From Candidatus Peregrinibacteria bacterium (GTDB lineage: Bacteria; Patescibacteriota; Gracilibacteria; Peribacterales; Peribacteraceae), in NCBI GenBank assembly GCA_043798355.1, contig JAZDOT010000002.1, positions 1,160 to 65,159 on the forward strand: a stretch of DNA of 64,000 nt, read 5' to 3'. Position 1 is the first letter of the stretch, and each line of letters begins with the position of its first letter. The position numbers and the translations under genes are program-made. The notes beneath the pieces were generated by a model. That model saw only the letters and a program-made list of their open reading frames with translations, was not told the origin of the DNA and ran no database searches. Below, piece after piece: positions 1,486 through 27,260 of this stretch.

Positions 1486-1621
1486 AAAAGATTTTTTCGG
1501 CGTATGAAAAATGCTGATACTCATTTGTGAGCTTCTGGAAGGAAAAAACACCAATTCAATACCCATCATCCGGCATCTCTTTGAGTTCTTCCGTTTCCGT
1601 GCGCACGATAGGGGCAAGGCA

Positions 1622-3707: not shown

Positions 3708-5948
3708 ATGGCCGGACTGCGTTATCTCCACATCATCGTGCCGCAGGGGACGGCGGGGGAGAAGAAGCTGGAGGTCAAGTTCCAGGATCTTCTCGTGAGC
3801 CTGCGCAATACCGTGACGGGTGTGCGGTTTTCGTTCGAATACCTCGGCTACGAGCAGTACACGTACTTCTACGCGGTCATGGAGGAGAAATATATGGAGA
3901 CGATCGAGGGTCTCATCTATGCGACTTTCCCCGATGCCGAGATCCGCGAAACGAAGGATTATGCCGCCTCCCTCGATCCGGCAAGGCATGCATTTGCCGG
4001 ATGCGAGCTTTATCCCAAGGAGAGTGACGTGTATCCCATCAAGACGTACGACAAATTCGAGGAGGACAGCATGTCGCGGCTCTTCTCGGTCCTCTCCAAA
4101 ATAGACAGCGGCGAGCAGGTGTGGGTGCAGATCATCTCGGAACCCAGAGCGGACAACGCCGCCTACCACTTTTTCCACAACCTACGCTTCCGGATCGCCG
4201 GATTCCTGAAGTTCTTCTCCCCGCGGGATCACTTGCGCAAGGAGGGGTACCGAGGCATCCAGGCCGTCCGCGCGAAGGCGGCGCACGCGAAGGACGAGAC
4301 GAAGCCGTACGAAGTCTCCATCCGCTGCGCGTATCTTTCGAAGAATTTCGAAGAGGCGAAGCGGAAGCTCACGGCGGTACAGAACAGCTTCTACCACTTC
4401 AACGATTCCGATATCAACGGGTTCACCTCCTCACGCTCAACCAATGCGGATTCTTTCCTGAAGAGGTACCGCGCGCGCGGGCACGCGAAGAAATTTGTTC
4501 TGAGTTCGATGGAACTGGCCACAATCTTCCACTTCCCGAATGCTGACTACGTGCATCACATCGTGCACGTCCTCGCGCGCAAGTCCGATCCTCCGCAGGA
4601 CCTCCCGCGGGCCGGTGAGAAGGAAGTGAGCACGTTCGGCATCACCAATTACCACAATAACTTCGTGAAGTTTGGCATCCGCCTCGAGGATCGCCGACGC
4701 CATCTCTACGTCGTCGGAAAATCGGGCGTGGGGAAATCGAAGCTCCTCGAACTCCTCATCCACGAGGATCTCGACCGCGGGCGCGGGGTGGCCGTACTCG
4801 ATCCGCACGGGGACCTCGTTGATAACGTTCTCCGGTTCGTTCCGAAGCACCGCATCGACGACGTCGTCCTCTTCGACCCGTCCGACACGGAGTTCCCCAT
4901 CGCCTTCAACCCGCTCGAGCAGGTGGAGGATGCCTACAAGATGCAGCTCACCATCGGCTTCCTCGACATCTTCAAGAAGCTCTTCGGCGATAACTGGACG
5001 TACCGTCTCGAGCACGTGTTGCGCTATACCACGCTCGCGCTCCTCGACAGCCCGAATACCACGGTGCTCTCGATCCTGAAGATGCTTAATGACAAGAACT
5101 ACCGCCAGAAGATCGTGGCGCGCATCCAGGACAACGTCGTGAAGAGCTTCTGGGTCTCGGAGTTCGCCGCGTGGAGCGAAAAGTTCGATGCCGAGGCCAT
5201 CACGCCGCTCCTCAACAAGGTCGGTCAGTTCGTGGCGACGAACATGATTCGCAACATCATCGGACAGAGTGACACGAAGTTCAAAATCCGCGACATCATG
5301 GACGGGAAGAAGATCCTGCTCATGAAGGTGTCGAAAGGACTCCTGGGAGAGGAGAACTCGTCGCTTCTCGGCTCCATGATCATCACGAAGATGTACCAGG
5401 CGGCCATGAGCCGCGCGGACGTTCTCGAGGAGCAGCGCTCTGACTTCTACTTCTACGTGGATGAGTTCCAGAACTTCGCGACGGATACCTTCTACGAGAT
5501 TCTCTCCGAGGCGCGCAAGTATCACCTCAATCTGACCATCGCCCATCAGTACATGGGGCAACTCTCAAGCAAGATCCGCCAGACGGTCTTCGGCAACGTG
5601 GGGTCCATGATCAGTTTCCGCGTGGGGGCGGAGGATGCGACGGTGCTCGAGAAGGAGTACGAGCCGATCTTCAAGGAACGCGACATCATCAACCTCGGTG
5701 TGCGTGAGTTCTACATCAAGATGTCGGTGAAAGGGGAGAGCCGCGATCCGTTCTCCGGCCGGACGGTGGATGTCCCGAAAGTCACGGCGGATCACTCCAG
5801 CGAGATCCGTGCGCTCTCGCGGGCGAAGTACTGCCAGGCGAAGCAGAAGGTGGAAGAGACCCTGAAGAAGTGGGACGAGGCTGCCAGTGCTCCGCCGAAG
5901 GAGGGTGAAGTGGATACGGAAGAGCAGTTCGACGAACCGATTATCTAG
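3708..5948 (+). CDS. VirD4/TraD (type IV coupling protein)-like HerA/FtsK-superfamily P-loop ATPase
   Basis: Walker A is YVVGKSGVGKSKLLE and Walker B is FYFYVDEFQNFA, followed by AHQYMGQL, as in TraG/TraD/VirD4-type ATPases. An N-terminal domain of about 330 aa has no obvious TM helices. Confidence 0.7.
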   Translation: MAGLRYLHIIVPQGTAGEKKLEVKFQDLLVSLRNTVTGVRFSFEYLGYEQYTYFYAVMEEKYMETIEGLIYATFPDAEIRETKDYAASLDPARHAFAGCELYPKESDVYPIKTYDKFEEDSMSRLFSVLSKIDSGEQVWVQIISEPRADNAAYHFFHNLRFRIAGFLKFFSPRDHLRKEGYRGIQAVRAKAAHAKDETKPYEVSIRCAYLSKNFEEAKRKLTAVQNSFYHFNDSDINGFTSSRSTNADSFLKRYRARGHAKKFVLSSMELATIFHFPNADYVHHIVHVLARKSDPPQDLPRAGEKEVSTFGITNYHNNFVKFGIRLEDRRRHLYVVGKSGVGKSKLLELLIHEDLDRGRGVAVLDPHGDLVDNVLRFVPKHRIDDVVLFDPSDTEFPIAFNPLEQVEDAYKMQLTIGFLDIFKKLFGDNWTYRLEHVLRYTTLALLDSPNTTVLSILKMLNDKNYRQKIVARIQDNVVKSFWVSEFAAWSEKFDAEAITPLLNKVGQFVATNMIRNIIGQSDTKFKIRDIMDGKKILLMKVSKGLLGEENSSLLGSMIITKMYQAAMSRADVLEEQRSDFYFYVDEFQNFATDTFYEILSEARKYHLNLTIAHQYMGQLSSKIRQTVFGNVGSMISFRVGAEDATVLEKEYEPIFKERDIINLGVREFYIKMSVKGESRDPFSGRTVDVPKVTADHSSEIRALSRAKYCQAKQKVEETLKKWDEAASAPPKEGEVDTEEQFDEPII

Positions 5949-6957: not shown

Positions 6958-7282
6958 GGGAGAGTGGGTAAAAAGATAAAAAGCTTCGCGATTCTACGCA
7001 GGCGGGATTGCTCTGCGCAAGTGATTTTGTGAACTTACGGGCGAATCGGGCAAAAATGTGCAATTGACGGATGGCGGTTTCCTATGTGAAGAGCTTTTCT
7101 GCGTGATTGTCAGCGGTGCATGATAAGCCATCAGCCTCCCCACTTTGCGCACTGCGCTCCGCGGGGCATGTCAGCCTTTAGCCATGAGCGACAGGTGAAC
7201 GATAGCGTGTTTCATTGGGTTCTCGCCGATGATCGAAGGGGGATAGAGTATGCTTCACTCGTCACTGTGGCATACTTCCTTC

Positions 7283-8884
7283 ATGGCAGTCGTCCAATGC
7301 GCAGTTTCGGGGGAATCGTTCACCGTTTCCGATGCTGAGCGGGGCCTGCGCGAGAAATTCGGTTTCGGGGACAGCCTGCCTTCGGTGAAGATCAAATACC
7401 GTTTCCGCGAACTGGGGGCATTCTGGCCGCACTGGAACCTCCATCCGCGCACGTGTGACAAGACCGGGAAAACCATCATCTCCATCTTCCGTCCCGATTG
7501 CCCCTATCCCGTCTGGGACAGAGCCGTTTGGGTGAAGGACGCGAATCCGCCGAGTGCGGAATTCTCAAATTCCCGCAGTTTTTTCGAGCAGGCATGGGAC
7601 CTCTTCCGCCGCTGCCCCCTTCCGCACAATTTTCAGAGCCACAATGAGAACAGCGAGTACACCGATGATTTCTATTCCCAGCAGAGTCAGCTCTGCAGCG
7701 ATCTCGTGCACTCCAACAATTGCTACAGTACGATTTACGCTCTGTACTGCCAAAATGTACAGGACTCAGCATTTCTGTACGATTGCCGCAGATGCGCGCA
7801 CTGTCTGTTCTGCACGAATCTGCGGGACAAGCAGTTTTGTTTCGAGAACAAGCAACTCACGCAAGAGGAATACGCGGACAAAATATCGGGATGGAATCTG
7901 CGATCACGCCAGGATTTCAAGCGGGCGAAAGATCACCTCCATGCATTGATACTCGAGCAGGGCTGGCACAGAGCCGTCCACGTTGATCACTGTGAGAACA
8001 CGCAGGGGAACTATCTGATGCACTGCAAGAATTGCGAAGACTGCTTCATTTCACCATGGCATGAGGATTGCGTTCATGATCTCATCTCGGGCCACCATGC
8101 GAAACTCACACTCGATTCGATGGGCACGATTGGCAGCGAACTGTCGTACCATTCCGTGATGGACGTGTACTGCTACGGGATTCGATTTTCTTTCGAGCTC
8201 AACGAATGTAAATCGTGCGATTACTGTGCCTACTGCTTCAACTGCAGAGACTGCTTCGGCTGCTGCGGCCTCTTCGGAAAGCGGTACTGTATCCTCAACA
8301 GACAGTACACGGAACAGGAGTATCGATCCTTGAAAGAGAACGTCATCGCACACATGCAACGCACCCCACTTCGCCCCCCTTCGGGGAGCTACGAGGGGCA
8401 AGCAGTGGAGTGGGGGAGTTTCTTCCCCGGACACTTCGCTCCGAATCCGTACGACGAGAGCTGTTCAGGTTTCAATTTCCCTCTCTCATTACAGGAACAG
8501 AGAACTCTCGGTTTCCGGGCAGCGGAAAAGCTGGAACGAAAGACCGAGAACATGCAGTCCATGGATCGTATTCCCGATTCCGTCGATGCGTTGCGACCTG
8601 CCGATGAATCGTCGATCACCGCCACGGTGTTCTGGGACGATGCATTTGAGAGACCGTTCAAGATCACAAAAGAAGACATCGCGGCTTCCCGGAAGCTCGG
8701 TATCCCGCTCCCCTCCGGGTACTACATCAAGCGCATGCAGGAAAATCTCCGTTGGATGCCGTGTGACGGGGAACTGCGGGAAACTCTATGCGGGAAGTGC
8801 GGTTGCACCGTTCTCACGAGCTGGCCGAGTGCTTTTGACAGCCGGATTCTCTGCGAGGAGGATTACCTGAAGGTGGTGATGTAG
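7283..8884 (+). CDS. Cysteine-rich double zinc-ribbon protein, paralog P2 (most divergent)
   Basis: It shares NENSEYT, the CxxC-rich core (CKSCDYCAYCFNCRDCFGCCGLFGKRYCILNRQYTEQEY) and RPFKITKEDI with the family. Several Cys of the terminal ribbons are lost (SVKIKYRFRE in place of LCPxCRxQRR). ATG at 7283. Confidence 0.8.
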   Translation: MAVVQCAVSGESFTVSDAERGLREKFGFGDSLPSVKIKYRFRELGAFWPHWNLHPRTCDKTGKTIISIFRPDCPYPVWDRAVWVKDANPPSAEFSNSRSFFEQAWDLFRRCPLPHNFQSHNENSEYTDDFYSQQSQLCSDLVHSNNCYSTIYALYCQNVQDSAFLYDCRRCAHCLFCTNLRDKQFCFENKQLTQEEYADKISGWNLRSRQDFKRAKDHLHALILEQGWHRAVHVDHCENTQGNYLMHCKNCEDCFISPWHEDCVHDLISGHHAKLTLDSMGTIGSELSYHSVMDVYCYGIRFSFELNECKSCDYCAYCFNCRDCFGCCGLFGKRYCILNRQYTEQEYRSLKENVIAHMQRTPLRPPSGSYEGQAVEWGSFFPGHFAPNPYDESCSGFNFPLSLQEQRTLGFRAAEKLERKTENMQSMDRIPDSVDALRPADESSITATVFWDDAFERPFKITKEDIAASRKLGIPLPSGYYIKRMQENLRWMPCDGELRETLCGKCGCTVLTSWPSAFDSRILCEEDYLKVVM

Positions 8885-9017
8885 CGGTGTGTTATCAGGG
8901 ATCATTCAGCAGATGCGAAGCGAAGAGCGCCGAGCGGACAGCGGTCAGTCTTCATGAAAGAAAGACTGCCCCATTCACTTATGGCGCACATCCGGTCACT
9001 GCTACAATGCTTTTTAC

Positions 9018-9108
9018 GGAGAGGTGGCCGAGTGGTCGAAGGCGCGCGACTCGAAATCGCGTAGGCTCCAAAAGGGTCTCGAGGGTTCGAATCCCTCCCT
9101 CTCCGCCA
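9018..9108 (+). tRNA. tRNA-Ser (anticodon CGA), CCA encoded
   Basis: GGAGAGGTGGCCGAGTGGTCGAAGGCG... The anticodon stem CGCGA/TCGCG carries the loop CTCGAAA (anticodon CGA). There is a long variable arm (class II), a T-arm GGGTTCGAATCCC, and the acceptor end CTCTCCGCCA. Confidence 0.9.
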
Positions 9109-9135
9109 TCCGGCTTCGTCTGCAATCCTCATCTC

Positions 9136-9987
9136 TCAAGTTCGCTGATCAACTCCAAAGCGGGCTTCAGCGAATTGTCGGAGTGTCTTCGTCCCTCCAC
9201 TCATGTAGTAACTACGCAGGGTTTCCGCGGCTCCATTCTTATCTTCGAATGACCACCCGCCCTGTCTCTTTCCGATCTCGTTATAGTATTGCGTGAATTT
9301 GTTAAAGTCCCACTCTTCTCTTTCGTGTGTCTCAGAACTTGCCGGATCGGATGGAGCACTGAGGGGCATGGCAGGGGAGGGATCGGGCTCACTATAGGGT
9401 TGTTTGATCGTATCGAGAAGCATTTTTCGTGCATCACCCGCCCTCCTGGTCAATATCTCTGCAGCACGAGGATAACGGTTGAATTGCGTAGAAGTGACTT
9501 GTGCATACATCGGTTCCACAATAGGCAGAAACCAGCCTTCGATCCACTCTTTCCCCAGTTCCTTTCGGTTCTTCGCTACACTGCTGTAGTTGTGCCAGAG
9601 ATCAGCCAGTTTAATGAGCCTGTCCTCTTCAGGGGCGGAGTGCATATGCTCAACGTACGAACCAACATCGGTATCACCTTTCTCGTTTGTCAAGCCACGA
9701 ATGCGCTCATGCACGTCCATCCCGTATTGTGCGATGACCTGTTCCGGACGTATCGTGGTGTCCTCATACAGATCATGCCCCAAGGCACCCAACACGAATT
9801 CCCGTCGTTTTTTCTGCGGAAGATCAGTCTCTGAGTCGAGCGCATTTTCCAGTTCCTGTGCAACGGAAAGACAGTGTTCCCATTGATGCTGGCCGCCAGC
9901 CCGCATCTGTCCTTCATGTTCCTTCTTCACAAGAAGAAGAAACTGCTTTGTTTCATCGTTCCATTGATGTTCATTAAGGTGCGGCAT
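9136..9987 (-). CDS. HD-domain hydrolase of the RelA/SpoT (small alarmone hydrolase, Mesh1-like) type
   Basis: HCLSVAQEL...GALGHDLYEDTTIRPEQV...GMDVHERIRGLT...RLIKLADLWHNYS matches the H..HD..ED...KLAD..HN pattern of SpoT-type HD hydrolases. The Met at 9987 overlaps the end of the giant gene by 14 nt. The longer track ORF (to 10251) would run inside the giant gene. Confidence 0.65.
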   Translation of the reverse strand: MPHLNEHQWNDETKQFLLLVKKEHEGQMRAGGQHQWEHCLSVAQELENALDSETDLPQKKRREFVLGALGHDLYEDTTIRPEQVIAQYGMDVHERIRGLTNEKGDTDVGSYVEHMHSAPEEDRLIKLADLWHNYSSVAKNRKELGKEWIEGWFLPIVEPMYAQVTSTQFNRYPRAAEILTRRAGDARKMLLDTIKQPYSEPDPSPAMPLSAPSDPASSETHEREEWDFNKFTQYYNEIGKRQGGWSFEDKNGAAETLRSYYMSGGTKTLRQFAEARFGVDQRT

Positions 9988-12900
9988 GAAAAAGAGATGA
10001 GTAATATAAATACCATTCTTTGAATTGCCCCTCCCGTTCCCGAGGAGTATCCGATGGTGACCTTTTGGGTGCATGTCCGTAGTACTCTTCTCTTCCCCGA
10101 TAGACTGGTAGTTCCGTTCCCGCTCTCGCAAGAACCCAGGCACTGAGAGCCTTGGCAGCCTTTCCGCAGCCATCCTCGAAGAAGTGGTGGGTGAGATCGA
10201 CATTGAATTCCACCCACGCAGCGAGCTCTCGAGGATTTTGGTGCGGATCATTCAATCGGCGCAAGAATTCCTGCGAGAAATTTTCAAATGATCGCGGAAG
10301 ATCGCTGATACGGGTATACGGGAACTTATCCGAATCAGCCCGCCGGAGCAGCATTCTCTCTTTGAGGATGCCTTTATTGACATCGAGGGCTATTTGTTCA
10401 ATGAAATTTCCCAGTTCACGGGGGGAACTGAATTGGCGGCTGCGCTCTCCATGTAGGCGCCTCATGACCGACTCGAAATTTTCATTCGCCTTCCTTGCGG
10501 CGTCGTGACCGGATGCAGCCATTGAGTCGGCTTTGATCTTCGTTGCCGATGTGTCGACCACCCCCCCGCTCGTACGACTCGTGTTCCGCAGGTTCTGCAT
10601 CGATCGGTCCACGAACTGTTGTTCCTGACGGATATCCCTCGTCACATGTTTGAAGATCTGAGGCTCGTGTACTGTCATACCTTTACCTTGGTGTTCTGCT
10701 ACCATGATAGTGTCCGGACCTGCATCTGTTTTGAACAAGTAATACTCATCCACGATTTTCATCACTTCCTGACGATATTGCACGACATCTTGGTATCCAC
10801 CCTCAATTCTATCGGTGGAGACAATGGGGTCGTCCCCTTCCGGAGAGCGACCCGGGTATTTCTTCCCTTGTGCTTCGCCCCCGTGAACACGTGCGATAGA
10901 AGTGGCCAATTCCGCATCGACATCCACCATGATAACTTTGTAATCGTTCTTTCGTGCCATTTCCGTCACTTCACGGACGTCCTCGGGTGTCGCAAACCGC
11001 TTGTCTATGACAATCAAATTTAATTTCTCTTTGAGTGCCTGATCGATTGTCCGTTCTGCCATCATCGCTCCTTCGCTGTGGGCCTGATCGTGCGAGATCT
11101 GATGGGTGCCTCCTCTTTTTTCGCGGACACGGACTTTGGCTTTGAGACCATCGGGATTGATTGCCGTGTCGGGATTTGCGTTGAGTTCTCGTAATCGGGG
11201 AGCGCTTGCCATGCGCAAGCAACTGCTCTTCCCTGCCGCGGTATTTCCACGCAACATCACGATCACTCTCTGCGCACCCACTGCTTCAGGTTTCATGGCC
11301 ATCGATCCCTTGCGAAGTGCCACCATTGTTTCCGAGAAAATTCGTTCATGGAATACGCTTATCTCCGGAATCCAATGGCTCGGATCGGCGATGTATGCCT
11401 TCATGGCCACTTTTCCCTTTGGAAGTTCTCCCACGGTATAGGCAACGTGTGATGCGATTTCGGGATTTCTTCGCAGACACTCCTGTCGTACTTCAAACCC
11501 GGAATGAGCGGGATTTCTTTCTGTCTGCGCCTTCACGCGACTCAGAACATCGCGGGCATTGGCGGCGTTGATCTCTATGAACTCCGCATGCCCCGCCTCG
11601 TTGATGGCCACGATGCCTTTCTCCGTGCTTCGAAGCACTTTAAATGACTGCTCAGGCATGCCTTGAGGTTGTTCTCGATTGAAGCGTTCGATCTTCTCCA
11701 GCAATTGATGCTCCTGCGCTTCTGCAATTTGCTTGGACATAATTTCCCACTTTTCTTGCGTTTTCGCCTCTGTCCGTTCATGCGGAGCAGTTTCCTTTTC
11801 CATGTTCGGTTTTTGTCCGACCTGTTCTTGCTTGGCAGCTTGCCGTTCTGTGCCACGGAGTTCTCCTTCAGGTTTCGACGGAGTTTCTGCGGGTGCCTTC
11901 GCCGCGCGGCCCTCGGCGGCTGCGTGCAATGATTGCTCGGGAGAGCCGGCACGTTGCGTCGGTACGGCATCCGGATGGTCCGGCGTCTTCACTGGTTCTT
12001 CCGTGAAGCGGACAATGGACTCATTCCCAGCCCTGTCCCGCAATCTCGGCACTCCGGATTCATCCACGATCACTGTGAGTCCCCGCTTCGCTCCGAAGGA
12101 CAAGAGATCACAACCTTTCGGCGCAGAAAGTTCGCCCATCATTTTGCCGCCAGGCTGCGTGTGCACAGCCACGGGATGGAGAAATCCTCCCAGACATGCG
12201 AGCGCGAACGTGGATGCCGCCCCGAGTCGATGATCGATGTTGTTCAAACCGGCACCGACAGCGGATTCTTTGACTGTCCATTCCATTTGGTCTGTGACCC
12301 CTTTGAAAAATTCCTTGAGGAACATCTTCCCCGCGCCGCTCTCCGCCGTAATGTTCGCGAGACGCTGCTCTATGAGTCGTGCGAGACTGGCATACTTGGA
12401 AAAAGCGACGATCCACTTTGGATTGCCAGCGGCAGAACGAAGAGCTTCACCAAGTTTCGCTCCGAGTCCCATCGTCACGAACATCACACCCACCCCCTCG
12501 GCAAATTCCAGCGCGAGCGGACCCGCCACGTCTGTCAGGAACTTCGGCGACACTTCCCTGCCGGTCTCGGGGTCGATGACGGTTCCCCCCGTCACCCAGG
12601 CCATCAATGCTGGACGATCGGTGTAGGTCGCTTTCCCGCTTCGAACATCTTCATCGAAATGCTGATGCCACTGGTACTGGATTTCCCGCACGCCTCCGTA
12701 TGTAGCCATACCCGCTGCCGTTGCGGTACTCGCTGAAGCGAGCATGACCAACATGGGTGCCATGGCTGCGCCGCACGTGGCGACAACGAGAGCTGCTGCT
12801 GCGGCTGCGACGGCAATGGATGCGGCGATCCTGGGCCCCTCGTGCTCGAGCCACGACACCCAGCCATCGTCCGTGAACCGGGATTTGTCGACGATCGTTT

Positions 12901-15076
12901 CGAGCATCCTTCGCACCTCCCCTCCGGTTTTCAGAAGATCGATCATGCCGTCGATCGCGCGAATGCGTTCAGAGATCTTCTGGTCCCAATCGTTCCCGGC
13001 GAGAGGGTTGCCGGTTTTTCTCAACTGATACAGGCGGTTTCGGGCTTGTTCCAGTTGCTGAGGGAGCTGCCGGTCATCCAATACTTTCTTGACGGCATCC
13101 AGCGGCCCATTCGCGCGTTCACGGAGGAAGGAGATGAATTCCGGAGATTTGCTTGCCTTCGGATTCATGGCATCGGAGAAGAGCGACTGCACCTCTCCCA
13201 GCCCACCGCTCATTGCCGTTGCCTGTTTCGAGACGTACTGGATGGACGGTTCGCGGTCCACTGCTCGGAACACATCGCGCCCCGTCTCCTCATCTTCCCG
13301 CTCGAGCGAAGGAATATCATGCGACGACAGCGGTCTCCTCTCCCCATCGCGGACGACGAGCGTTCTCCCCTCCCGTTTCGCATAGCCGAGATCCCGACTC
13401 GTCACTGTACGGTACATCATGTCATTGCCGTCTCCGTGGATGAGCAGTGGCGGTCTGCGCAGGATGACACGCTGATCCGAGGGAACTTCGGTGATGATGC
13501 GGGATGCTTCCGCTGAGAGGAACACCGAATATTCCTGTCCGCTCGCAGCTTGTATCGTTGTCGGACGGAGAGGGGAGCGTGCATCGGCCAGGGAGCCGTC
13601 GGGGAGCCGAATACGGCCATCCTGTTCCTGGTAGCCGACGAGAAATCCGCCTTTCGTTTCCACAAGCATCGGGGGCTCATGGAATCTCAGGCCGGATGAT
13701 CTGATGTCATTGTTGACTGAAAAGCGCGGAGCAAGGAGGGGGTGGGGAGAGAATGATCGGAACACATCTGCCGGTCGCTGCCCGGTTTCCGCATGAACGG
13801 TGATCGTTCTGGATTTCACGCGCACATCTCTCCATCCACGCAACTGATGGAGAATGGAGCGCCCGTCGGCGTCTCCCTCTTTGCGCTGGCGAACCGCCGC
13901 ATCGATCGCCTCTCCATCCAGGTTTTCCCCGAAGAGCGAGTGCTCGAAGGAACGCAGGAGCCCCTGTTGTTTCATTTCCATGGATGCAGTTTGCCCATCG
14001 TGGAAGAGGGCGGCATTCACAGTCTCCAATTGGGGACCGAACCGCTCGAACGCCCGCAGGCTGATTCTCTGCGCCAGGGCTTCTCCCCCTTCCGTTCTCG
14101 CCGTCACGGCATCGAACCGTGCGAATGCGATGTCCAATTGTTGCACCTGTGCCTGCAATGCGTTGCGCTGGCCTTTTCGCTCTCCCAGTTCTTTCTGCAG
14201 AACCTTCAGTGATTCGATTTCCTTTCCTTGTCCTTTCCAATCCTTCTGCTTGAGAAGATCAGAGAGATGTTTCAGCATCTCCCCCTCTTTTTCCTGAAGC
14301 TGATCCACTTCTTTTTGTGACGTCTCCACATCATTCGCCAGCCGCCCCCTCAATCCCTCTGCCGCTTCGACAGGCGACTCAAGAAGCGTCTGGAGAGGAC
14401 GGAGGACGGGGTCAGTATCTCTCTTCATCTTCTCTCGAGGTTCGCACACTAACTGAGAGACTATCAATGTCGTATCAACAGGCGACTGTGATCCCAGAAC
14501 GGCTTTGTGTTGCGAAGGAGTCAAACTCTCCATGAGTGCGATCCGGGCATGGAGTGACCGCAGCGTTCCATCGTCGTACCCGTTTTCGCGGATCTTCCCT
14601 GCAAGGGAAGGAATTTGTTCTTTGACAATACCCCATTGCTCGAGAAGCGCTTCAACCGGGGTCGGCGGTTTCTCCGGACGCCCGGACAGTTCCTCCGTTG
14701 TCCGGAAGGATTGGAGGATTTCCGCAATCGCATTGTTGAAATCCGCCATTCCCTGGAAGAGCGTCGGGCGATCAACCTTCTCGATGCGGCTGAGAAGTTT
14801 CTGCTCTGCATCTCTGCAGAGCGTTTCCATCTCTTGCCATCCCGGTTTCCTCTGATCCCGAAGGAGCGCAGCTCGTTCGTGCATTCGTGCGATTTTTCCC
14901 TGCACCTGATCCACCCGATGGATGTATGTCTCGGTAGGATTCCCGTTTGCGGCTTCCCGGGCATTCGGTTTCATGTCAATCTGGCGGTCTTCTTTGGCAT
15001 CCAGTCGGTCGAGTCGCTGCTGTTCACGACCGATCTGTCCGGCTGCCGGATCATGGTTGGGTGTTTCAGAACTCAT
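9974..15076 (-). CDS. Giant multidomain protein (1700 aa): coiled-coil N-terminal half, hydrophobic segment, zeta-toxin-like P-loop kinase, C-terminal Fic/Doc-like domain
   Basis: Single uninterrupted ORF. The Ala/Val-rich hydrophobic stretch IAASIAVAAAAAALVVATCGAAMAPMLVMLA lies near aa 749-795. Walker A is VIVMLRGNTAAGKSS and NLIVIDKRF follows it. The Fic-like motif HFFEDGCGKAAK is near the C-terminus. Confidence 0.85.
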   Translation of the reverse strand: MSSETPNHDPAAGQIGREQQRLDRLDAKEDRQIDMKPNAREAANGNPTETYIHRVDQVQGKIARMHERAALLRDQRKPGWQEMETLCRDAEQKLLSRIEKVDRPTLFQGMADFNNAIAEILQSFRTTEELSGRPEKPPTPVEALLEQWGIVKEQIPSLAGKIRENGYDDGTLRSLHARIALMESLTPSQHKAVLGSQSPVDTTLIVSQLVCEPREKMKRDTDPVLRPLQTLLESPVEAAEGLRGRLANDVETSQKEVDQLQEKEGEMLKHLSDLLKQKDWKGQGKEIESLKVLQKELGERKGQRNALQAQVQQLDIAFARFDAVTARTEGGEALAQRISLRAFERFGPQLETVNAALFHDGQTASMEMKQQGLLRSFEHSLFGENLDGEAIDAAVRQRKEGDADGRSILHQLRGWRDVRVKSRTITVHAETGQRPADVFRSFSPHPLLAPRFSVNNDIRSSGLRFHEPPMLVETKGGFLVGYQEQDGRIRLPDGSLADARSPLRPTTIQAASGQEYSVFLSAEASRIITEVPSDQRVILRRPPLLIHGDGNDMMYRTVTSRDLGYAKREGRTLVVRDGERRPLSSHDIPSLEREDEETGRDVFRAVDREPSIQYVSKQATAMSGGLGEVQSLFSDAMNPKASKSPEFISFLRERANGPLDAVKKVLDDRQLPQQLEQARNRLYQLRKTGNPLAGNDWDQKISERIRAIDGMIDLLKTGGEVRRMLETIVDKSRFTDDGWVSWLEHEGPRIAASIAVAAAAAALVVATCGAAMAPMLVMLASASTATAAGMATYGGVREIQYQWHQHFDEDVRSGKATYTDRPALMAWVTGGTVIDPETGREVSPKFLTDVAGPLALEFAEGVGVMFVTMGLGAKLGEALRSAAGNPKWIVAFSKYASLARLIEQRLANITAESGAGKMFLKEFFKGVTDQMEWTVKESAVGAGLNNIDHRLGAASTFALACLGGFLHPVAVHTQPGGKMMGELSAPKGCDLLSFGAKRGLTVIVDESGVPRLRDRAGNESIVRFTEEPVKTPDHPDAVPTQRAGSPEQSLHAAAEGRAAKAPAETPSKPEGELRGTERQAAKQEQVGQKPNMEKETAPHERTEAKTQEKWEIMSKQIAEAQEHQLLEKIERFNREQPQGMPEQSFKVLRSTEKGIVAINEAGHAEFIEINAANARDVLSRVKAQTERNPAHSGFEVRQECLRRNPEIASHVAYTVGELPKGKVAMKAYIADPSHWIPEISVFHERIFSETMVALRKGSMAMKPEAVGAQRVIVMLRGNTAAGKSSCLRMASAPRLRELNANPDTAINPDGLKAKVRVREKRGGTHQISHDQAHSEGAMMAERTIDQALKEKLNLIVIDKRFATPEDVREVTEMARKNDYKVIMVDVDAELATSIARVHGGEAQGKKYPGRSPEGDDPIVSTDRIEGGYQDVVQYRQEVMKIVDEYYLFKTDAGPDTIMVAEHQGKGMTVHEPQIFKHVTRDIRQEQQFVDRSMQNLRNTSRTSGGVVDTSATKIKADSMAASGHDAARKANENFESVMRRLHGERSRQFSSPRELGNFIEQIALDVNKGILKERMLLRRADSDKFPYTRISDLPRSFENFSQEFLRRLNDPHQNPRELAAWVEFNVDLTHHFFEDGCGKAAKALSAWVLARAGTELPVYRGREEYYGHAPKRSPSDTPREREGQFKEWYLYYSSLFHAAP
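10151..10186 (-). other. Variant Fic/Doc core motif HFFEDGCGKAAK
   Basis: The reverse complement reads CAC TTC TTC GAG GAT GGC TGC GGA AAG GCT GCC AAG. It aligns to HxFx(D/E)GNGRxxR with the substitutions N to C, R to K and R to K. Confidence 0.6.
11225..11248 (-). other. Walker A (GNTAAGKS) of the zeta-toxin-like kinase domain (domain about 10697-11266)
   Basis: The reverse complement reads GGA AAT ACC GCG GCA GGG AAG AGC. Confidence 0.7.
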
Positions 15077-15414
15077 GGCAGAGTATCGAAGAGGCTCTCT
15101 GTGTTTTTTTGTTCCTCCTTCGTCTCCTCCCGTTCTATTCCCTGATTGAGAGTCCTGTTCACCGTCTGGAGATCGCGATCCATATACGCAAGGGAAACGG
15201 CGTTACCGGAGGAAACAACGGTGCGAATGGATTCGCCGAGCATCTCCCCGATCACCTTGCCCTCGCCGAGAAGCATGTTTTTGAGCGTTGCCAGTTGGTC
15301 GGCGCCGAGTGAGTCCAGTTTCTCCGTCAGGGTCTTTTTCAACTCGCGGGAAAGCAGATTGCTCCGTTCGATGAGCAGGAGGACAGCGCTGTTGGTTTGT
15401 GTCGGGAGAGGCAT
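15073..15414 (-). CDS. Small helical hypothetical protein, translationally coupled to the giant gene
   Basis: 113-aa ORF. Its TGA overlaps the ATG of the giant gene (ATGA at 15073-15076). No family recognised. Confidence 0.6.
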   Translation of the reverse strand: MPLPTQTNSAVLLLIERSNLLSRELKKTLTEKLDSLGADQLATLKNMLLGEGKVIGEMLGESIRTVVSSGNAVSLAYMDRDLQTVNRTLNQGIEREETKEEQKNTESLFDTLP

Positions 15415-15687
15415 ATCAAAATATTATAGCGGAATGCGACTTTCTTGGCTATAGACAAGGTTTTCCGTCTCCTCATGATCGCCATTCCGGAATTTGATAT
15501 TCTATTGCTATATCCATTGATCCTTTCGAGCTTCCAGGAACGGCATTCCAGCGCTCTGTGTGGTCTGAGATCGCGAAGATTCCGTTCGGACGGAACATTG
15601 GGCGGGTATTCGGGACGGGGGGTACGGAGGAAGAGGACGCTTCTCAAACAGGAGGGGGTGTCTATCCAAACGCCTGCCACAGAAGTT

Positions 15688-16795
15688 TCAGTGCGGATGC
15701 GAGGGCGACCACGATGAGGAGGAGCGCTTCAGCATCGCATCGATGAACTGCTGAATATCCCCATCCAGCACTGCTGTTGTATTACTCGTCTCCACCTCGG
15801 TCCTCAGGTCCTTCACCATCTGGTATGGGTGCAGGACGTAACTTCTGATCTGCTGGCCGAAGTCGGCACTCTCCTTCGCGCCTTTCAGTTCCGACTTCGT
15901 TTCGCTCCGCTCGCGCTGTTCCTTCTCGAGCAGTTTTGCCCTCAGCATGTTCATGGCCTGCTCGCGGTTCTGGAGTTGGCTCCTCTCGTTCTGGCACGCG
16001 ACCACGATCCCAGTCGGCATATGCGTGATGCGGATGGCGCTCTCGACCTTATTCACATTCTGACCTCCCGCGCCGCCGCTCCTATAGGTATCGACTCTCA
16101 GATCCGAAGGATTGATATCCACGGCGGCGGATGCCGGGAGTTCGGGTAAGACCTCCACGAGCGCGAAGCTGGTCTGGCGGAGATTTTTCGCATTGAACGG
16201 CGAGAGGCGCACGAGTCGGTGCGTGCCCTTCTCGCACTTGAGATAGCCGTACGCCAGTTCGCCTTTCACGTGGATGGCGGCCGACTTGATGCCGGCTTCC
16301 TGTCCGTCCGTTTTTTCGATGATGTCCGTCTTCCAGCCTTTCCGCTCGCAGTAGCGTAGATACATCCTGAGCAGCATGGCGGCCCAGTCCTGCGCTTCGG
16401 TGCCTCCCGCCCCGCCGCTCACGGTGAGGTAGCAGTTGAGCGCATCGAATTCGCCGCTCAGGTAGAGCTGCAACTCGATCGTGTTCCAGAGCTCCACGAA
16501 TTTTCCATAGTCCTCCTCGAGCATCGGAACATCGGAAGGATCCGCATGCTCCGCCATTTCCAGGAGCGCCGAGACATCACTCAGCATCTTCGAGACGGGC
16601 TCCCACTGTTTCTTCAGGAGCTTCAGTTCCGTGAAGAGCATGTTGGCCGAGCGTTGGTCGTCCCAGAGGTGCGGGTCGGCAGTCTGCTCTTCGAGCTTCC
16701 GAATGCGCTGGGGTATATTTTTTTTCTCAAAGAGAGTCCTTTCCCGTGTTGATGGCGGACCGGAGTTCACAGAGTTTTTGCAGGAGATCCTCCAC
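15688..16795 (-). CDS. prfB: Peptide chain release factor 2, with programmed +1 frameshift
   Basis: The RF2 body includes [20 protein letters not shown] (the GGQ motif). Frame 0 runs from GTG 16795 as (M)[21 protein letters not shown], then CTT TGA at 16732-16727. A +1 shift continues as [24 protein letters not shown]. The 5' part of the track ORF (16796-16935) is read-through of a repeat array and is not coding. Confidence 0.9.
16727..16732 (-). promoter_or_regulatory. prfB: prfB +1 frameshift site CTT TGA G
   Basis: The minus strand reads GGAAAGGAC TCT CTT TGA GAA. This is the same CUU UGA slippery/stop arrangement as in E. coli prfB, with a purine-rich SD-like tract upstream. Confidence 0.85.
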
Positions 16796-16865
16796 GGGGA
16801 AGGGGGGATGAGGTACGTGCTTAAGCGTAGCCGTGTCTTTCCCGAAGCGGAAGGGGAGGCGGAAA

Positions 16866-16900
16866 GGCTAAGGCTAAGGTTAAGGCTAGGGTTAGGATTA
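16866..16900 (+). repeat. Hexamer tandem array (GGCTAA/GGTTAA/GGCTAG/GGTTAG)
   Basis: ggctaaggctaaggttaaggctagggttaggatta lies between the divergent prfB and the gene at 16977. Confidence 0.9.
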
Positions 16901-16976
16901 CATACTAATAAGAAATTCATGCAATTATTGGCCATGGCTCGGAGGCCGAAAATCCGCTACAATGAGAGGAAAACAC

Positions 16977-27068: not shown

Positions 27069-27260
27069 CGCAGGGAGAATATCAGAACGAAGACCGATAC
27101 TCCCGTATTCCCATACACCCATAACCGTTCTGTCCCCTCATGGAACGTCTTTCTGTTCATCCTGAAGAGCAAAAGAAGCTTACCCCCTTGTGAAGTTTCA
27201 TTGGGTGATTGGATCAGGCCAGACCGGTGCTACACTGACGCTCCTGTGGCACGAAAACGC

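What the first reader, a model, noticed from the sequence alone, without database searches (positions are those of the whole stretch)
9136..15414. Three-gene coupled operon: small helical protein, 1700-aa zeta-kinase/Fic-like giant, SpoT-type HD hydrolase
**Operon structure.** The three minus-strand ORFs overlap. The small gene and the giant gene share ATGA at 15073-15076. The giant gene and the HD gene overlap by 14 nt at 9974-9987. One transcription and translation unit is therefore likely.

**Domains of the giant protein.**
- A long coiled-coil N-terminal half.
- An Ala/Val-rich hydrophobic segment near aa 749-795.
- A P-loop domain with the zeta-toxin-type Walker A (VIVMLRGNTAAGKSS).
- A C-terminal Fic/Doc-like motif.

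**Interpretation.** Zeta toxins (UDP-GlcNAc kinases) and Fic/Doc enzymes (AMPylation or phosphorylation) are both classical toxin or effector modules. SpoT-type small alarmone hydrolases are known antitoxins of toxSAS systems. Placing such a hydrolase as the last, overlapping gene after a double-toxin-domain giant suggests an effector with a cognate neutraliser, or a nucleotide-signalling circuit. I do not know this combination as a described system. The operon sits right next to tRNA-Ser, and the HD gene looks AT-richer, which is consistent with an acquired island.
Basis: partly seen in the sequence, partly recalled or inferred. Interest (0 to 1): 0.75.

Follow-up and report, generated by a model that had tools for sequence, protein, structure and literature searches.

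The report
Double-toxin giant with fused double antidote
A three-gene operon encodes a 1700-residue membrane-associated protein that ends in two toxin-type enzymes (an AvrRxo1-like NAD kinase and an unusual Fic-fold enzyme), followed by one small protein that fuses a SpoT/Mesh1-type hydrolase to the known AvrRxo1 antitoxin Arc1; the Fic-with-hydrolase pairing was not found in the literature searched.

Summary

**What the parts are**
- The giant's P-loop domain is specifically AvrRxo1-like (NCBIfam E=1e-44; PDB 4z8v E=3e-17). Its Walker A motif and catalytic Asp are conserved.
- The giant's C-terminal domain has a true Fic fold. It carries a family-invariant variant motif, HxFxDGCGKxxK.
- The "HD" gene is a fusion. 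An SAH/Mesh1-type hydrolase with all catalytic residues intact is joined by a disordered linker to an Arc1-like antitoxin domain.

**Conservation**
- The module recurs in dozens of mostly candidate-phyla-radiation (CPR) contigs, with its domains fused or split.
- In 96 non-redundant loci, the HD gene accompanies the Fic-like domain: 29 of 38 well-flanked loci, against 0 of 26 kinase-only loci.
- Arc1 accompanies the kinase.
- Split loci show two separate pairs, fic→hd and kin→arc.

**Best reading (confidence 0.5)**
This is a two-toxin effector with a two-part antidote. Arc1 blocks the kinase. The hydrolase enzymatically erases what the Fic-like domain writes, and perhaps also the kinase product 3'-NADP.

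**Not established**
The chemistry, the delivery route and the host taxon were not determined.

**Verdict**
New variant of known kinds. Interest is moderately high.

The parts
15423..15451 (-). Promoter-like site (TAGCCA-17-TATAAT) just upstream of the small gene. The -10 element ends 9 nt before the ATG.
   Evidence: Consensus scan, 10 of 12 matches; sequence read. This is a consensus match only, and the count of such sites is no higher than in shuffles.
15073..15414 (-). Small 113-aa protein of unknown function. Its stop overlaps the giant's start (ATGA).
   Evidence: ORF; junction. No Pfam, NCBIfam, PADLOC or PHROG family. The only homologue found is the 112-aa gene at the same position in L004. 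The exact product is on record.
9974..15076 (-). Giant 1700-aa gene. Domain order: N-terminal region, hydrophobic hairpin, pre-kinase region, AvrRxo1-like kinase, Fic-like domain.
12842..15076 (-). N-terminal region of the giant (aa 1-745), charged and of unknown fold.
   Evidence: Homologous only to the L004 giant (26% identity over aa 3-1023). No PDB or Pfam match. Composition.
12713..12841 (-). Hydrophobic segment of about 40 aa (aa 746-788), long enough for a two-helix membrane hairpin. Weaker hydrophobic segments lie at aa 850-872 (12461-12529) and aa 951-971 (12164-12226).
   Evidence: Kyte-Doolittle scan. A similar single ~40-aa hydrophobic segment occurs in other giant forms (L004, L015, L098, L041) and in none of the 700-830-aa forms.
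11450..11740 (-). Conserved pre-kinase region (aa 1113-1209), shared with the 720-830-aa CPR homologues.
   Evidence: BLASTP alignments begin at aa 1111-1113 in L004 and L013; consensus in alignment A1.
10637..11449 (-). AvrRxo1/XopAJ-type zeta-family P-loop kinase domain (aa 1210-1480). Walker A RGNTAAGKS at 11225-11251; catalytic-Asp motif INPD at 11150-11161.
   Evidence: NCBIfam NF041405 E=1e-44. PDB 4z8v AvrRxo1-ORF1 E=3e-17, with VNPD aligned to INPD. Pfam Zeta_toxin 32.2 bits against a cut-off of 22.3. These residues are invariant in 17 homologues. Roles of T167 and D193 are from PMC5491322 and PMC5087710.
9977..10636 (-). Fic-fold domain (aa 1481-1700) with variant motif HFFEDGCGKAAK (10151-10186) and an N-terminal invariant SRT..G motif (10562-10582).
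   Evidence: AF2 model has pLDDT 92.9. All top Foldseek PDB hits are Fic proteins (3cuc E=1.7e-5, FICD, IbpA). The family profile hits FICD at E=2e-7 with HfFaDGCgktak aligned to HPFIDGNGRTSR. H, D, G and C are invariant in 26 stand-alone relatives.
9388..9987 (-). SAH/Mesh1-type HD hydrolase domain (aa 1-200 of the 283-aa protein). Its start overlaps the giant's stop by 14 nt. Motifs GHDLYEDT at 9757-9780 and KLADLWHN at 9589-9612.
   Evidence: Profile against PDB: Lmo0812 1e-16, Mesh1 6e-14, PaSAH 1e-12, human MESH1 4e-11. Foldseek: PaSAH TMt 0.78; also MESH1-NADPH and MESH1-PAPS complexes. Catalytic residues are invariant in 35 toxin-linked HDs.
9331..9387 (-). Disordered linker (aa 201-219) between the HD and Arc1-like domains.
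   Evidence: pLDDT below 50 in the AF2 model. The region is absent or variable in homologues.
9139..9330 (-). Arc1 (AvrRxo1-ORF2)-like antitoxin domain (aa 220-283), fused to the HD. Stop codon at 9136-9138.
   Evidence: A profile built from this segment plus the small downstream ORFs of related loci hits only AvrRxo1-ORF2 (4z8q_B, E=2.5e-6; next hit E=0.7). In L005, L006, L008, L010 and L011 the same domain is a separate 75-117-aa gene.
9018..9108 (+). tRNA-Ser(CGA), convergent with the operon's end. It is a flanking landmark, and no evidence was found that it served as an integration site.
   Evidence: ARAGORN and Rfam. No direct repeat of the tRNA end within 8800-16000.

Best explanation
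The operon is an effector/toxin-immunity module in which two toxin-antidote pairs have been welded into two genes.

**The giant protein**
- It carries two enzymatic toxin domains in tandem at its C-terminus. One is an AvrRxo1-type kinase, inferred to phosphorylate the adenosine 3'-OH of NAD to give 3'-NADP. The other is a Fic-fold enzyme of a distinct, uncharacterised subfamily with the motif HxFxDGCGKxxK.
- Ahead of these lie about 1100 residues that include a ~40-residue hydrophobic hairpin. By inference this region anchors the protein in a membrane or helps move the enzymatic end across one.

**The downstream gene**
- It is translationally coupled to the giant and supplies both antidotes in one chain.
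- The Arc1-like C-terminal domain binds and blocks the kinase. This mechanism is known for AvrRxo1:Arc1.
- The N-terminal SpoT/Mesh1-type HD hydrolase is catalytically intact. By inference it works enzymatically, removing the ribose-O-phosphoryl or nucleotidyl modification written by the Fic-like domain, and possibly also the 3'-phosphate of 3'-NADP.

**The small upstream protein**
- It is an accessory factor of unknown role. A chaperone or adaptor function is a guess.

**Shown versus inferred**
- Shown: domain identities, intact catalytic residues, the fusions and fissions, and the co-occurrence pattern.
- Inferred: toxicity, substrates, the antidote role of the HD, and delivery to another cell.
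For: **Domain identities**
- Kinase.
- Fic fold, with the motif in register against FICD.
- HD similar to SAH/Mesh1. All catalytic residues are kept in 35 of 35 toxin-linked HDs.
- Arc1-like domain.

**Pairing logic from 96 non-redundant loci**
- The HD lies within 3 kb in 29 of 38 well-flanked loci that carry the Fic-like domain, and in 0 of 26 kinase-only loci (Fisher p=1e-10).
- Arc1-like ORFs follow kinases: 20 of 34 kinase-only loci and most kin-fic loci. They are essentially absent from fic-only loci.

**Split loci show the pairs directly**
- L016 has the order kin-arc-fic-hd.
- L014 has fic→hd converging on a separate kin→arc unit.
- L020 and L022-L024 have fic-hd-kin-arc.
- L017, L019, L027, L073 and L091 have fic+hd with no kinase.

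**Rosetta-stone fusions**
- kin-fic fusions are common.
- HD::Arc1 fusions occur in the window, L004, L001 and L067. In L005, a close relative, the HD and the Arc1-like protein are separate genes.

**Precedents from the literature**
- AvrRxo1 is toxic and is neutralised by Arc1 (PMC4938570).
- AvrRxo1 makes 3'-NADP (PMC5087710 and PMC5491322).
- SAH hydrolases serve as antitoxins of toxSAS systems (PMC7229694).
- Mesh1-type enzymes remove 2'- or 3'-monophosphates from NADPH and CoA (PMC13221220; MESH1-NADPH and MESH1-PAPS structures).

**Weapon-like context**
- The Fic-like domain also sits inside giant multi-toxin proteins together with ART-PolyVal and Zeta_toxin domains.
- The operon's GC3 is lower than that of its neighbours.
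Against: - No activity was measured for any domain.
- About a quarter of well-flanked Fic-like loci lack an HD. These include kin-fic+arc loci in high-GC, non-CPR contigs: L065, L069, L076 and L025/L047.
- Five of 143 representative proteins carry the HD in the same polypeptide as the Fic-like domain: P0164, P0148, P0071, P0053 and P0070. This is unusual for a secreted toxin and its immunity protein.
- No secretion signal or known trafficking domain was found. A T4SS coupling-protein gene lies nearby in only 2 loci.
- The co-occurrence statistic is not corrected for phylogeny. Kinase-only loci are mostly non-CPR, and loci were gathered by motif patterns.
- More distant HD homologues (37-43% identity) occur without any toxin partner.
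Confidence: 0.5

Rival explanations
1. The HD is the antidote for the kinase rather than for the Fic-like domain. It would be a 3'-NADP 3'-phosphatase that regenerates NAD, working beside Arc1. The Fic-like domain would have an unrelated role.
For: - The chemistry fits. AvrRxo1 writes a 3'-phosphate on adenosine ribose.
- Mesh1-type HDs remove 2'- or 3'-phosphates from NADPH and CoA and bind PAPS.
- The HD is fused to the kinase's own antitoxin, Arc1.
Against: - 0 of 34 kinase-only loci have an HD.
- fic+hd pairs exist without any kinase within 5-6 kb (L017, L019, L027, L073, L091).
- In split loci the HD always sits next to fic, not next to kin.
Confidence: 0.15
2. The HD is a co-enzyme of the effector, not an antidote. 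The kinase, the Fic-like domain and the HD would act in sequence on one nucleotide or cofactor to build or trim a toxic or signalling product. The Arc1 domain would merely tether the HD to the giant.
For: - Same-chain HD-Fic fusions occur in both orders, and one kinase-Fic-HD chain exists.
- The Fic-like domain is also fused to NAD-epimerase, Pyr_redox_2, CTP_transf_like and radical-SAM domains, which suggests a dinucleotide-cofactor theme.
- The HD is dispensable in about 24% of Fic-like loci.
Against: - In most loci the HD is a separate small gene placed like an immunity gene, directly after the toxin.
- It is fused to a proven antitoxin.
- Giant multi-toxin proteins with the Fic-like domain almost never include the HD (5 of 143).
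- SAH enzymes are known as erasers.
Confidence: 0.15
3. The module is an endogenous writer/eraser circuit for a modified nucleotide or cofactor, comparable to a stringent-response system. It would be used by the bacterium on itself for growth control or dormancy, not delivered to other cells.
For: - HD-Fic single-chain proteins mimic the hydrolase-plus-synthetase layout of Rel/SpoT.
- Some relatives carry cyclic-nucleotide-binding sensor domains (P0028; P0070).
- No secretion signal was found.
- AvrRxo1:Arc1 also behaves as a classical TA pair.
Against: - The giant forms have a hydrophobic hairpin and long variable N-termini.
- The Fic-like domain occurs in polyvalent or polymorphic-toxin-like giants.
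- The operon is compositionally atypical within a housekeeping neighbourhood.
Confidence: 0.12
4. The giant is a polyvalent protein of a phage or conjugative element. It would be injected with DNA to disarm the recipient, and the operon would belong to an integrated mobile element at tRNA-Ser.
For: - Some Fic-like representatives are fused to Portal_Mu or ART-PolyVal domains.
- A T4SS coupling-protein-like gene lies at 3708-5948, and a homologue lies beside the module in L010.
- A tRNA gene is adjacent, and GC3 is lower than in the neighbours.
Against: - No relative was found in 2.9 million viral contigs, and there is no close match in BFVD.
- There is no integrase and no att-like repeat.
- The operon is bounded by prfB and the tRNA, with no other mobile-element genes between them.
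- The T4CP gene is nearby in only 2 of about 96 loci.
Confidence: 0.05

Closest known systems
AvrRxo1:Arc1 (XopAJ) toxin-antitoxin / type III effector-chaperone pair of Xanthomonas, Acidovorax and Burkholderia
   Same: - The kinase domain is homologous, with the Walker A motif and catalytic Asp conserved.
- An Arc1-like antitoxin domain is encoded immediately downstream.
- GC content is lower than in the host genome, as reported for avrRxo1 (PMC4938570).
   Different: - AvrRxo1 is 421 aa with a T3SS signal. Here the kinase is buried at aa 1210-1480 of a 1700-aa protein, followed by a Fic-like domain.
- Arc1 is fused to an HD hydrolase.
- No T3SS is present.
- The NCBIfam score of 153 bits is below the family cut-off of 300.
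toxSAS-SAH toxin-antitoxin systems (FaRel/PhRel with small alarmone hydrolase antitoxins; Jimmy et al. 2020, PMC7229694)
   Same: A SpoT/Mesh1-type single-domain HD hydrolase is encoded next to a nucleotide-modifying toxin and is proposed to detoxify by enzymatic reversal.
   Different: - The toxin partner is not a RelA/SpoT-type synthetase. It is a Fic-fold enzyme, together with a zeta-type kinase.
- No RSH synthetase domain is present in the operon.
Fic/Doc toxin modules (FicT-FicA, VbhT-VbhA, Doc-Phd) and FICD/HYPE
   Same: - The fold is Fic.
- The catalytic His and the D-G-x-G core align in register with FICD.
- The domain is used as a toxin or effector module.
   Different: - The motif is HxFxDGCGKxxK: an invariant Cys replaces Asn, and Lys replaces both Arg residues.
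- The position of the inhibitory Glu within the (S/T)xxxE(G/N)-like SRTxxG stretch is variable.
- The partner is an HD hydrolase, not an alpha-inh helix antitoxin or Phd.
- Pfam Fic does not detect the window domain.
Bifunctional Rel/SpoT (hydrolase plus synthetase) and Mesh1
   Same: - The HD domain is of the same family.
- In some relatives (P0164, P0148, P0071) the HD sits N-terminal to the presumed writer domain in one chain, as in Rel.
- Mesh1 acts on the ribose 2'- or 3'-phosphates of NADPH and CoA.
   Different: - The writer domain has a Fic fold, not a nucleotidyltransferase fold.
- In the window the two are separate proteins.
- The substrate is unknown.
Polymorphic toxin systems and polyvalent proteins (Iyer et al. 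2017, PMC5512222)
   Same: - A very large protein has variable N-terminal parts and C-terminal toxin domains, followed by an immunity gene.
- Zeta-like kinases are reported in polyvalent proteins.
- The Fic-like domain co-occurs with ART-PolyVal and Portal_Mu domains in some giants.
   Different: - No recognised trafficking domain (RHS, LXG, PAAR, TPS, MuF) was found in the window protein.
- No mobile-element genes lie between the operon's flanking tRNA-Ser and prfB.

Membership tests
Zeta-toxin / AvrRxo1 (XopAJ) kinases | P-loop Walker A GxxxxGK[ST] | tested here: met
   RGNTAAGKS at aa 1276-1284, invariant in 17 homologues.
Zeta-toxin / AvrRxo1 (XopAJ) kinases | Catalytic Asp equivalent to AvrRxo1 D193 | tested here: met
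   INPD (D1309) aligns with VNPD of 4z8v. D193N/T variants are inactive (PMC5087710, PMC5491322).
Zeta-toxin / AvrRxo1 (XopAJ) kinases | Pfam Zeta_toxin (PF06414) gathering score | tested here: met
   32.2 bits against a cut-off of 22.3.
Zeta-toxin / AvrRxo1 (XopAJ) kinases | NCBIfam NF041405 XopAJ/AvrRxo1 curated cut-off | tested here: not met
   153 bits (E=1e-44) against a cut-off of 300. AvrRxo1 is the closest family, but the window protein is not a member of the T3SS-effector subfamily as curated.
Zeta-toxin / AvrRxo1 (XopAJ) kinases | NAD 3'-kinase activity (3'-NADP formation) | not testable with these tools
   Inferred from homology only.
Arc1 (AvrRxo1-ORF2) antitoxin | Sequence similarity to AvrRxo1-ORF2 | tested here: met
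   Profile A4 against PDB: 4z8q_B at E=2.5e-6 is the only significant hit.
Arc1 (AvrRxo1-ORF2) antitoxin | Motif KExFD(x25-27)(Y/L)ExxYY (Triplett 2016) | tested here: inconclusive
   The window has REEWD, then 28 residues, then TLRSYY (aa 223-261). Relatives have KEPFD...LExxYY.
Arc1 (AvrRxo1-ORF2) antitoxin | Small stand-alone protein encoded after the kinase gene | tested here: not met
   In the window it is the C-terminal domain of the HD protein. It is stand-alone (75-117 aa) in L005, L006, L008, L010 and L011.
Fic/Fido | Fic fold | tested here: met
   The AF2 model has pLDDT 92.9. The top 46 Foldseek PDB hits are all Fic proteins (probability 0.99-1.0, TMq about 0.6).
Fic/Fido | Canonical motif HxFx(D/E)GNGRxxR | tested here: not met
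   The window has HFFEDGCGKAAK. H, F, D and G-x-G are kept, N is replaced by C, and both R are replaced by K. Across relatives H, D, G and C are invariant and K is nearly so.
Fic/Fido | Pfam Fic (PF02661) gathering score | tested here: not met
   No hit for the window domain. 7 of 26 stand-alone relatives hit at E<=0.01, and P0164 scores 28.6 against a cut-off of 24.
Fic/Fido | AMPylation or another phosphotransfer activity on a target hydroxyl | not testable with these tools
   Neither the donor nor the target is known.
Small alarmone hydrolase / Mesh1 (RSH HD hydrolases) | HD-fold similarity to SAH/Mesh1 | tested here: met
   Profile against PDB gives 1e-16 to 4e-11 for Lmo0812, Mesh1, PaSAH and MESH1. 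Foldseek gives PaSAH TMt 0.78.
Small alarmone hydrolase / Mesh1 (RSH HD hydrolases) | Metal and catalytic residues (H, HD, ED, D...N, R, K) | tested here: met
   R29, H38, H71, D72, E75, D76, N101, K126, D129 and N133 are invariant in 35 toxin-linked HDs.
Small alarmone hydrolase / Mesh1 (RSH HD hydrolases) | Pfam HD_4 gathering score | tested here: not met
   13.8 bits against 27.2 for the window protein. Close homologues carry precomputed HD_4 hits.
Small alarmone hydrolase / Mesh1 (RSH HD hydrolases) | Hydrolysis of (p)ppGpp or (p)ppApp | not testable with these tools
   The substrate is unknown. 3'-NADP or a product of the Fic-like domain is proposed.
toxSAS-SAH toxin-antitoxin | The toxin is a RelA/SpoT-type small alarmone synthetase | tested here: not met
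   No RSH synthetase domain was found in any of the three proteins.
Polymorphic toxin systems | Recognised N-terminal trafficking or secretion domain | tested here: not met
   No Pfam, NCBIfam or PDB match for aa 1-1100.
Polymorphic toxin systems | C-terminal toxin domain(s) followed by a cognate immunity gene | tested here: met
   The kinase and Fic-like domains sit at the C-terminus, and the HD::Arc1 gene overlaps the stop codon. The immunity function itself is inferred.

The most novel reading that the evidence does not exclude
The DGCGK Fic-like family would be a previously unrecognised class of writer enzyme. Its product would carry a ribose-O-phosphoryl or nucleotidyl linkage on a nucleotide, a dinucleotide cofactor or an RNA 3' end. 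SpoT/Mesh1-type HD hydrolases would erase that linkage. This would give small alarmone hydrolases a second synthetase partner that is not of the RelA/SpoT type, and it would define a new Fic-HD toxin-antidote (or alarmone-like) system. CPR bacteria would deploy it fused to an NAD 3'-kinase on a membrane-inserting giant protein.
Probability: 0.3. Interest if true: 0.85.

Novelty: new variant of a known kind. Interest (0 to 1): 0.62.

Why it matters
**New questions for known enzyme families**
- SAH/Mesh1 hydrolases are mostly orphan enzymes, and their physiological substrates are debated: (p)ppGpp, (p)ppApp, NADPH, CoA.
- Fic enzymes are known as protein AMPylators or kinases.
- A conserved pairing of a variant Fic domain with an SAH hydrolase, sometimes fused, points to a Fic-catalysed modification that an HD can erase. 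That gives both families a concrete, testable new chemistry.

**An internal control**
- The HD::Arc1 fusion ties a hydrolase of unknown role to a proven antitoxin. The kin-fic fusion ties the unknown Fic-like enzyme to a proven toxin. Together these make the hypothesis easy to test in E. coli.

**Relevance to CPR biology**
- Most related loci found here come from candidate-phyla-radiation (CPR) MAGs: Saccharibacteria, Berkelbacteria, Daviesbacteria and Parcubacteria.
- Cultivated CPR bacteria live as epibionts on other microbes.
- Two enzymes aimed at central nucleotides, carried on a membrane-associated giant, are plausible tools for manipulating or killing the host cell.

Tried and rejected
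1. Searching with the full 1700-aa protein returned only itself, because of the word-candidate cap. Searching with the C-terminal 501 aa worked.
2. My first hypothesis was that the HD erases the kinase's 3'-NADP. It was downgraded after the locus census showed 0 of 34 kinase-only loci with an HD, and fic+hd pairs that lack a kinase.
3. The taxonomy of the window could not be established.
   - The giant is not in the gene-position index.
   - The window's proteins are singleton, unnamed clusters from an 81-kb NCBI contig.
   - "CPR/Patescibacteria" is inferred only from relatives and from gene content such as DUF5667.
4. The mobile-element reading found little support.
   - No att-like repeat of tRNA-Ser.
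   - No relative in viral contigs.
   - Only generic Fic hits in BFVD.
   - No PADLOC defence family.
5. The N-terminal 745 aa gave nothing in PDB at E<=10 and nothing in Pfam or NCBIfam.
6. The small 113-aa protein does not match the 57-70-aa upstream-ORF family found in the shorter CPR loci. Homology between the two could not be shown.
7. I asked whether Fic-like domains in HD-less loci have a degenerate motif. They do not.
8. Literature searches returned no paper holding both terms for zeta toxin with alarmone hydrolase, or for Fic domain with small alarmone hydrolase. Among the listed papers that hold AvrRxo1 together with SpoT, HD-domain or alarmone-hydrolase terms, none links them. The library is limited to open-access papers and bioRxiv.

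Full report
**Observation**

The three minus-strand ORFs are present as described: 15073-15414 (113 aa), 9974-15076 (1700 aa) and 9136-9987 (283 aa). The longest HD ORF extends to 10251. The ATG at 9987 is supported by homologue alignment. The 283-aa and 113-aa products are also exactly the sequences on record for the 81-kb NCBI contig.

The ATGA overlap at 15073-15076 and the 14-nt overlap at 9974-9987 were read directly. A promoter-like TAGCCA-17-TATAAT lies just upstream of the small gene. tRNA-Ser(CGA) at 9018-9108 converges on the operon's end. An independent contig, L004, has the same three-gene layout with the same overlaps: 112 aa, 1840 aa and 275 aa.

**The kinase**

- Pfam gives Zeta_toxin above threshold.
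- The specific relative is AvrRxo1/XopAJ: NCBIfam NF041405 E=1e-44, though below the curated cut-off, and PDB 4z8v AvrRxo1-ORF1 E=3e-17 over aa 1212-1480.
- Walker A (RGNTAAGKS, aa 1276-1284) and the INPD motif, which aligns with AvrRxo1's catalytic D193, are invariant across 17 homologues.
- AvrRxo1 phosphorylates the adenosine 3'-OH of NAD, and D193 and T167 are required for this (PMC5087710, PMC5491322).

**The C-terminal domain**

- An AF2 model of aa 1480-1700 has pLDDT 92.9 and pTM 0.91. Its PDB matches are Fic proteins throughout: BT_2513, FICD/HYPE, IbpA-Fic2 and others.
- A profile of 26 relatives hits FICD at E=2e-7, with HfFaDGCgktak aligned to HPFIDGNGRTSR.
- The family signature is N..SRT..G..D.S.S..K together with H-x-x-x-D-G-C-G-K. 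S, R, T, H, D, G and C are invariant.
- It is therefore a Fic-fold enzyme that keeps the catalytic His, has Cys in place of the motif Asn, and has Lys in place of both Arg residues.
- Pfam and NCBIfam have no model that detects it.
- An exhaustive search found 420 representative clusters. They range from stand-alone 210-260-aa proteins to internal domains of giants of up to 6100 aa. Some giants combine it with Zeta_toxin, ART-PolyVal or Portal_Mu domains.

**The third gene**

- The N-terminal 200 aa are an SAH/Mesh1-type HD. Profile against PDB gives Lmo0812 1e-16, Drosophila Mesh1 6e-14, PaSAH 1e-12 and human MESH1 4e-11. Foldseek gives PaSAH TMt 0.78, and also the MESH1-NADPH and MESH1-PAPS complexes.
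- All metal-binding and catalytic residues are present.
- After a disordered linker (aa 201-219), the last ~65 aa align with small ORFs that follow the HD gene in related loci. The joint profile hits only AvrRxo1-ORF2 (Arc1, 4z8q_B, E=2.5e-6) in the PDB.
- The gene is therefore an HD::Arc1 fusion. In L005, a close relative, the two parts are separate genes.

**Conservation and pairing**

Homologues of the kinase-plus-Fic part are mostly 720-830-aa proteins from CPR MAGs: Saccharibacteria, Berkelbacteria, Peregrinibacteria, Daviesbacteria and Parcubacteria. I scanned 119 fetched loci plus the window with four HMMs (kin, fic, hd, arc) and reduced them to 96 non-redundant loci.

- An HD gene lies within 3 kb in 37 of 62 Fic-containing loci, and in 29 of 38 with at least 1.5 kb of flank on both sides.
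- It lies near 0 of 34 kinase-only loci (0 of 26 with good flanks). These are mostly myxobacterial, Kofleriaceae, Burkholderiales and Deinococcales loci. Fisher p is about 1e-10, uncorrected for phylogeny.
- Arc1-like ORFs follow kinases and are essentially absent from fic-only loci.
- Split arrangements show the pairs directly. L016 has kin-arc-fic-hd. L014 has fic→hd converging on a separate kin→arc unit. L020 and L022-L024 have fic-hd-kin-arc. L017, L019, L027, L073 and L091 have fic+hd with no kinase.
- HD::Arc1 fusions occur in the window, L004, L001 and L067.
- All 35 distinct toxin-linked HDs keep every catalytic residue, so they are enzymes and not mere binders.

**Interpretation**

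The most economical reading is two toxin-antidote pairs. Kinase with Arc1 is a known pair. Fic-like with HD was not found in the literature searched. In this lineage the pairs have fused into one toxin gene and one antidote gene.

- The HD family's chemistry is to cleave phosphoryl groups esterified to ribose 3' or 2' hydroxyls: ppGpp and ppApp, NADPH 2'-phosphate, and CoA 3'-phosphate (PMC13221220).
- That suggests the Fic-like domain writes such a linkage. It also leaves open that the HD removes the kinase's 3'-phosphate from 3'-NADP.
- SAH antitoxins of toxSAS systems are the functional precedent (PMC7229694).

**Caveats**

- About a quarter of well-flanked Fic-like loci lack an HD. These include high-GC, non-CPR kin-fic+arc loci. 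Their Fic motif is intact.
- Five of 143 representatives carry the HD and the Fic-like domain in one chain: P0164, P0148, P0071, P0053 and P0070. This resembles the Rel hydrolase-synthetase layout. It fits a writer/eraser relationship but sits less well with a secreted toxin and its immunity protein.
- More distant HD homologues occur without toxin partners, overlapping a GTP cyclohydrolase II gene.

**Delivery and context**

- The N-terminal ~1100 aa are homologous only to the L004 giant and match nothing known.
- A ~40-aa hydrophobic hairpin (aa 746-788) is shared in kind by giant forms from several lineages. It is absent from the short forms.
- No secretion signal or trafficking domain was identified.
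- A T4SS coupling-protein-like gene lies 4 kb away. A homologue abuts the module in L010, but in no other locus.
- The operon's GC3 (0.52-0.68) is below that of neighbouring housekeeping genes (0.70-0.83). Its closest relatives come from contigs with about 49% GC. This is consistent with horizontal acquisition, but there is no integrase and no att repeat. No viral relatives were found.

**Literature**

- Triplett et al. 2016 listed CPR avrRxo1/arc1-like pairs. They noted an unexplained intervening ORF in Ca. S. aalborgensis but do not mention a hydrolase or phosphatase.
- No paper in the searchable library combined the terms for zeta toxin with alarmone hydrolase, or for Fic domain with small alarmone hydrolase. 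None of the listed papers on SpoT or alarmone hydrolases mentions AvrRxo1.
- Iyer et al. 2017 mention zeta-like kinases in polyvalent proteins but do not mention Fic.

**Verdict**

The module is a new variant built from known kinds, with one pairing (variant Fic with SAH-type HD) that was not found in the literature searched and that carries a testable biochemical prediction.

Noticed in passing
window 3708-5948 (+); L010 5807-8398: A T4SS coupling-protein-like ATPase (T4SS-DNA_transf, DUF87 and TrwB domains) lies about 4 kb from the operon. Its only homologue among the fetched loci (33% identity over 675 aa) sits directly after the toxin module in L010.
   Followed up: partly
window 1511-3298 (+), 20148-21815 (-), 25353-27122 (-), 7250-8884 (+): Three 555-595-aa proteins end in a probable treble-clef zinc finger (zf_Tbcl_2). 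A Cys-rich 544-aa protein sits beside tRNA-Ser. Two of these four proteins weakly match phrog_15341. Their function is unknown, and they may form a paralogous family.
   Followed up: no
P0164, P0148, P0071, P0053, P0070 (representative proteins): These are single-chain fusions of an SAH-type HD with the DGCGK Fic-like domain. One carries an added NAD-dependent epimerase, and one has the order cNMP-binding, kinase, Fic, HD. The layout resembles the Rel hydrolase-synthetase arrangement.
   Followed up: partly
P0052, P0059, P0099, P0062, P0073, P0094: The Fic-like domain is also fused to radical-SAM, cytidylyltransferase-like, pyridine-nucleotide oxidoreductase, Portal_Mu and ART-PolyVal domains, often together with a zeta-type kinase. 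Among representatives that also carry a kinase matching my AvrRxo1-like HMM, the kinase comes first in 21 and the Fic-like domain first in 15.
   Followed up: partly
L120-L123 (Binatia and Eisenbacteria MAGs): The nearest non-toxin-linked HD homologues (37-43% identity) overlap the start of a GTP cyclohydrolase II gene. This HD_4 plus RibA-like pair is conserved in two phyla.
   Followed up: no
L046 6956-8219: Four tandem Arc1-like ORFs follow a >2100-aa kinase-bearing giant in a Deinococcales MAG. The pattern resembles the immunity-gene arrays of polymorphic toxin loci.
   Followed up: no
L015, L098, L086: These are giant (1770-1885 aa) forms with a weak kinase match plus the Fic-like domain, followed by an HD, in contigs of 0.60-0.69 GC. 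L015 is a 316-kb contig labelled Actinomycetota. Either the module occurs outside CPR, possibly in host lineages of Saccharibacteria, or the contig was mis-binned.
   Followed up: no
L006 5801-5974, L008 5783-5995, L011 5822-6004 and 9469-9651: A family of 57-70-aa helical ORFs ending in KK(I/M)RK(D/E)LG precedes the short-form toxin genes. A second copy in L011 precedes an unrelated 477-aa gene. The window's 113-aa protein does not match this family.
   Followed up: partly
window 10568-10700 (giant aa ~1460-1503): The window protein lacks a linker segment of about 70 aa between the kinase and Fic-like domains. Nearly all 720-830-aa homologues have it (alignment A1, columns about 620-695).
   Followed up: no
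window 15688-16935 (-): In the prfB ORF, the PCRF domain starts only at residue 76. The first ~75 codons match no family. No canonical CTTTGAC frameshift site is present, so the true start is probably internal.
   Followed up: partly
window 53917-56373 (-): A SecD/SecF-type protein carries a PPIC-type peptidyl-prolyl isomerase domain inserted at residues 342-454.
   Followed up: no
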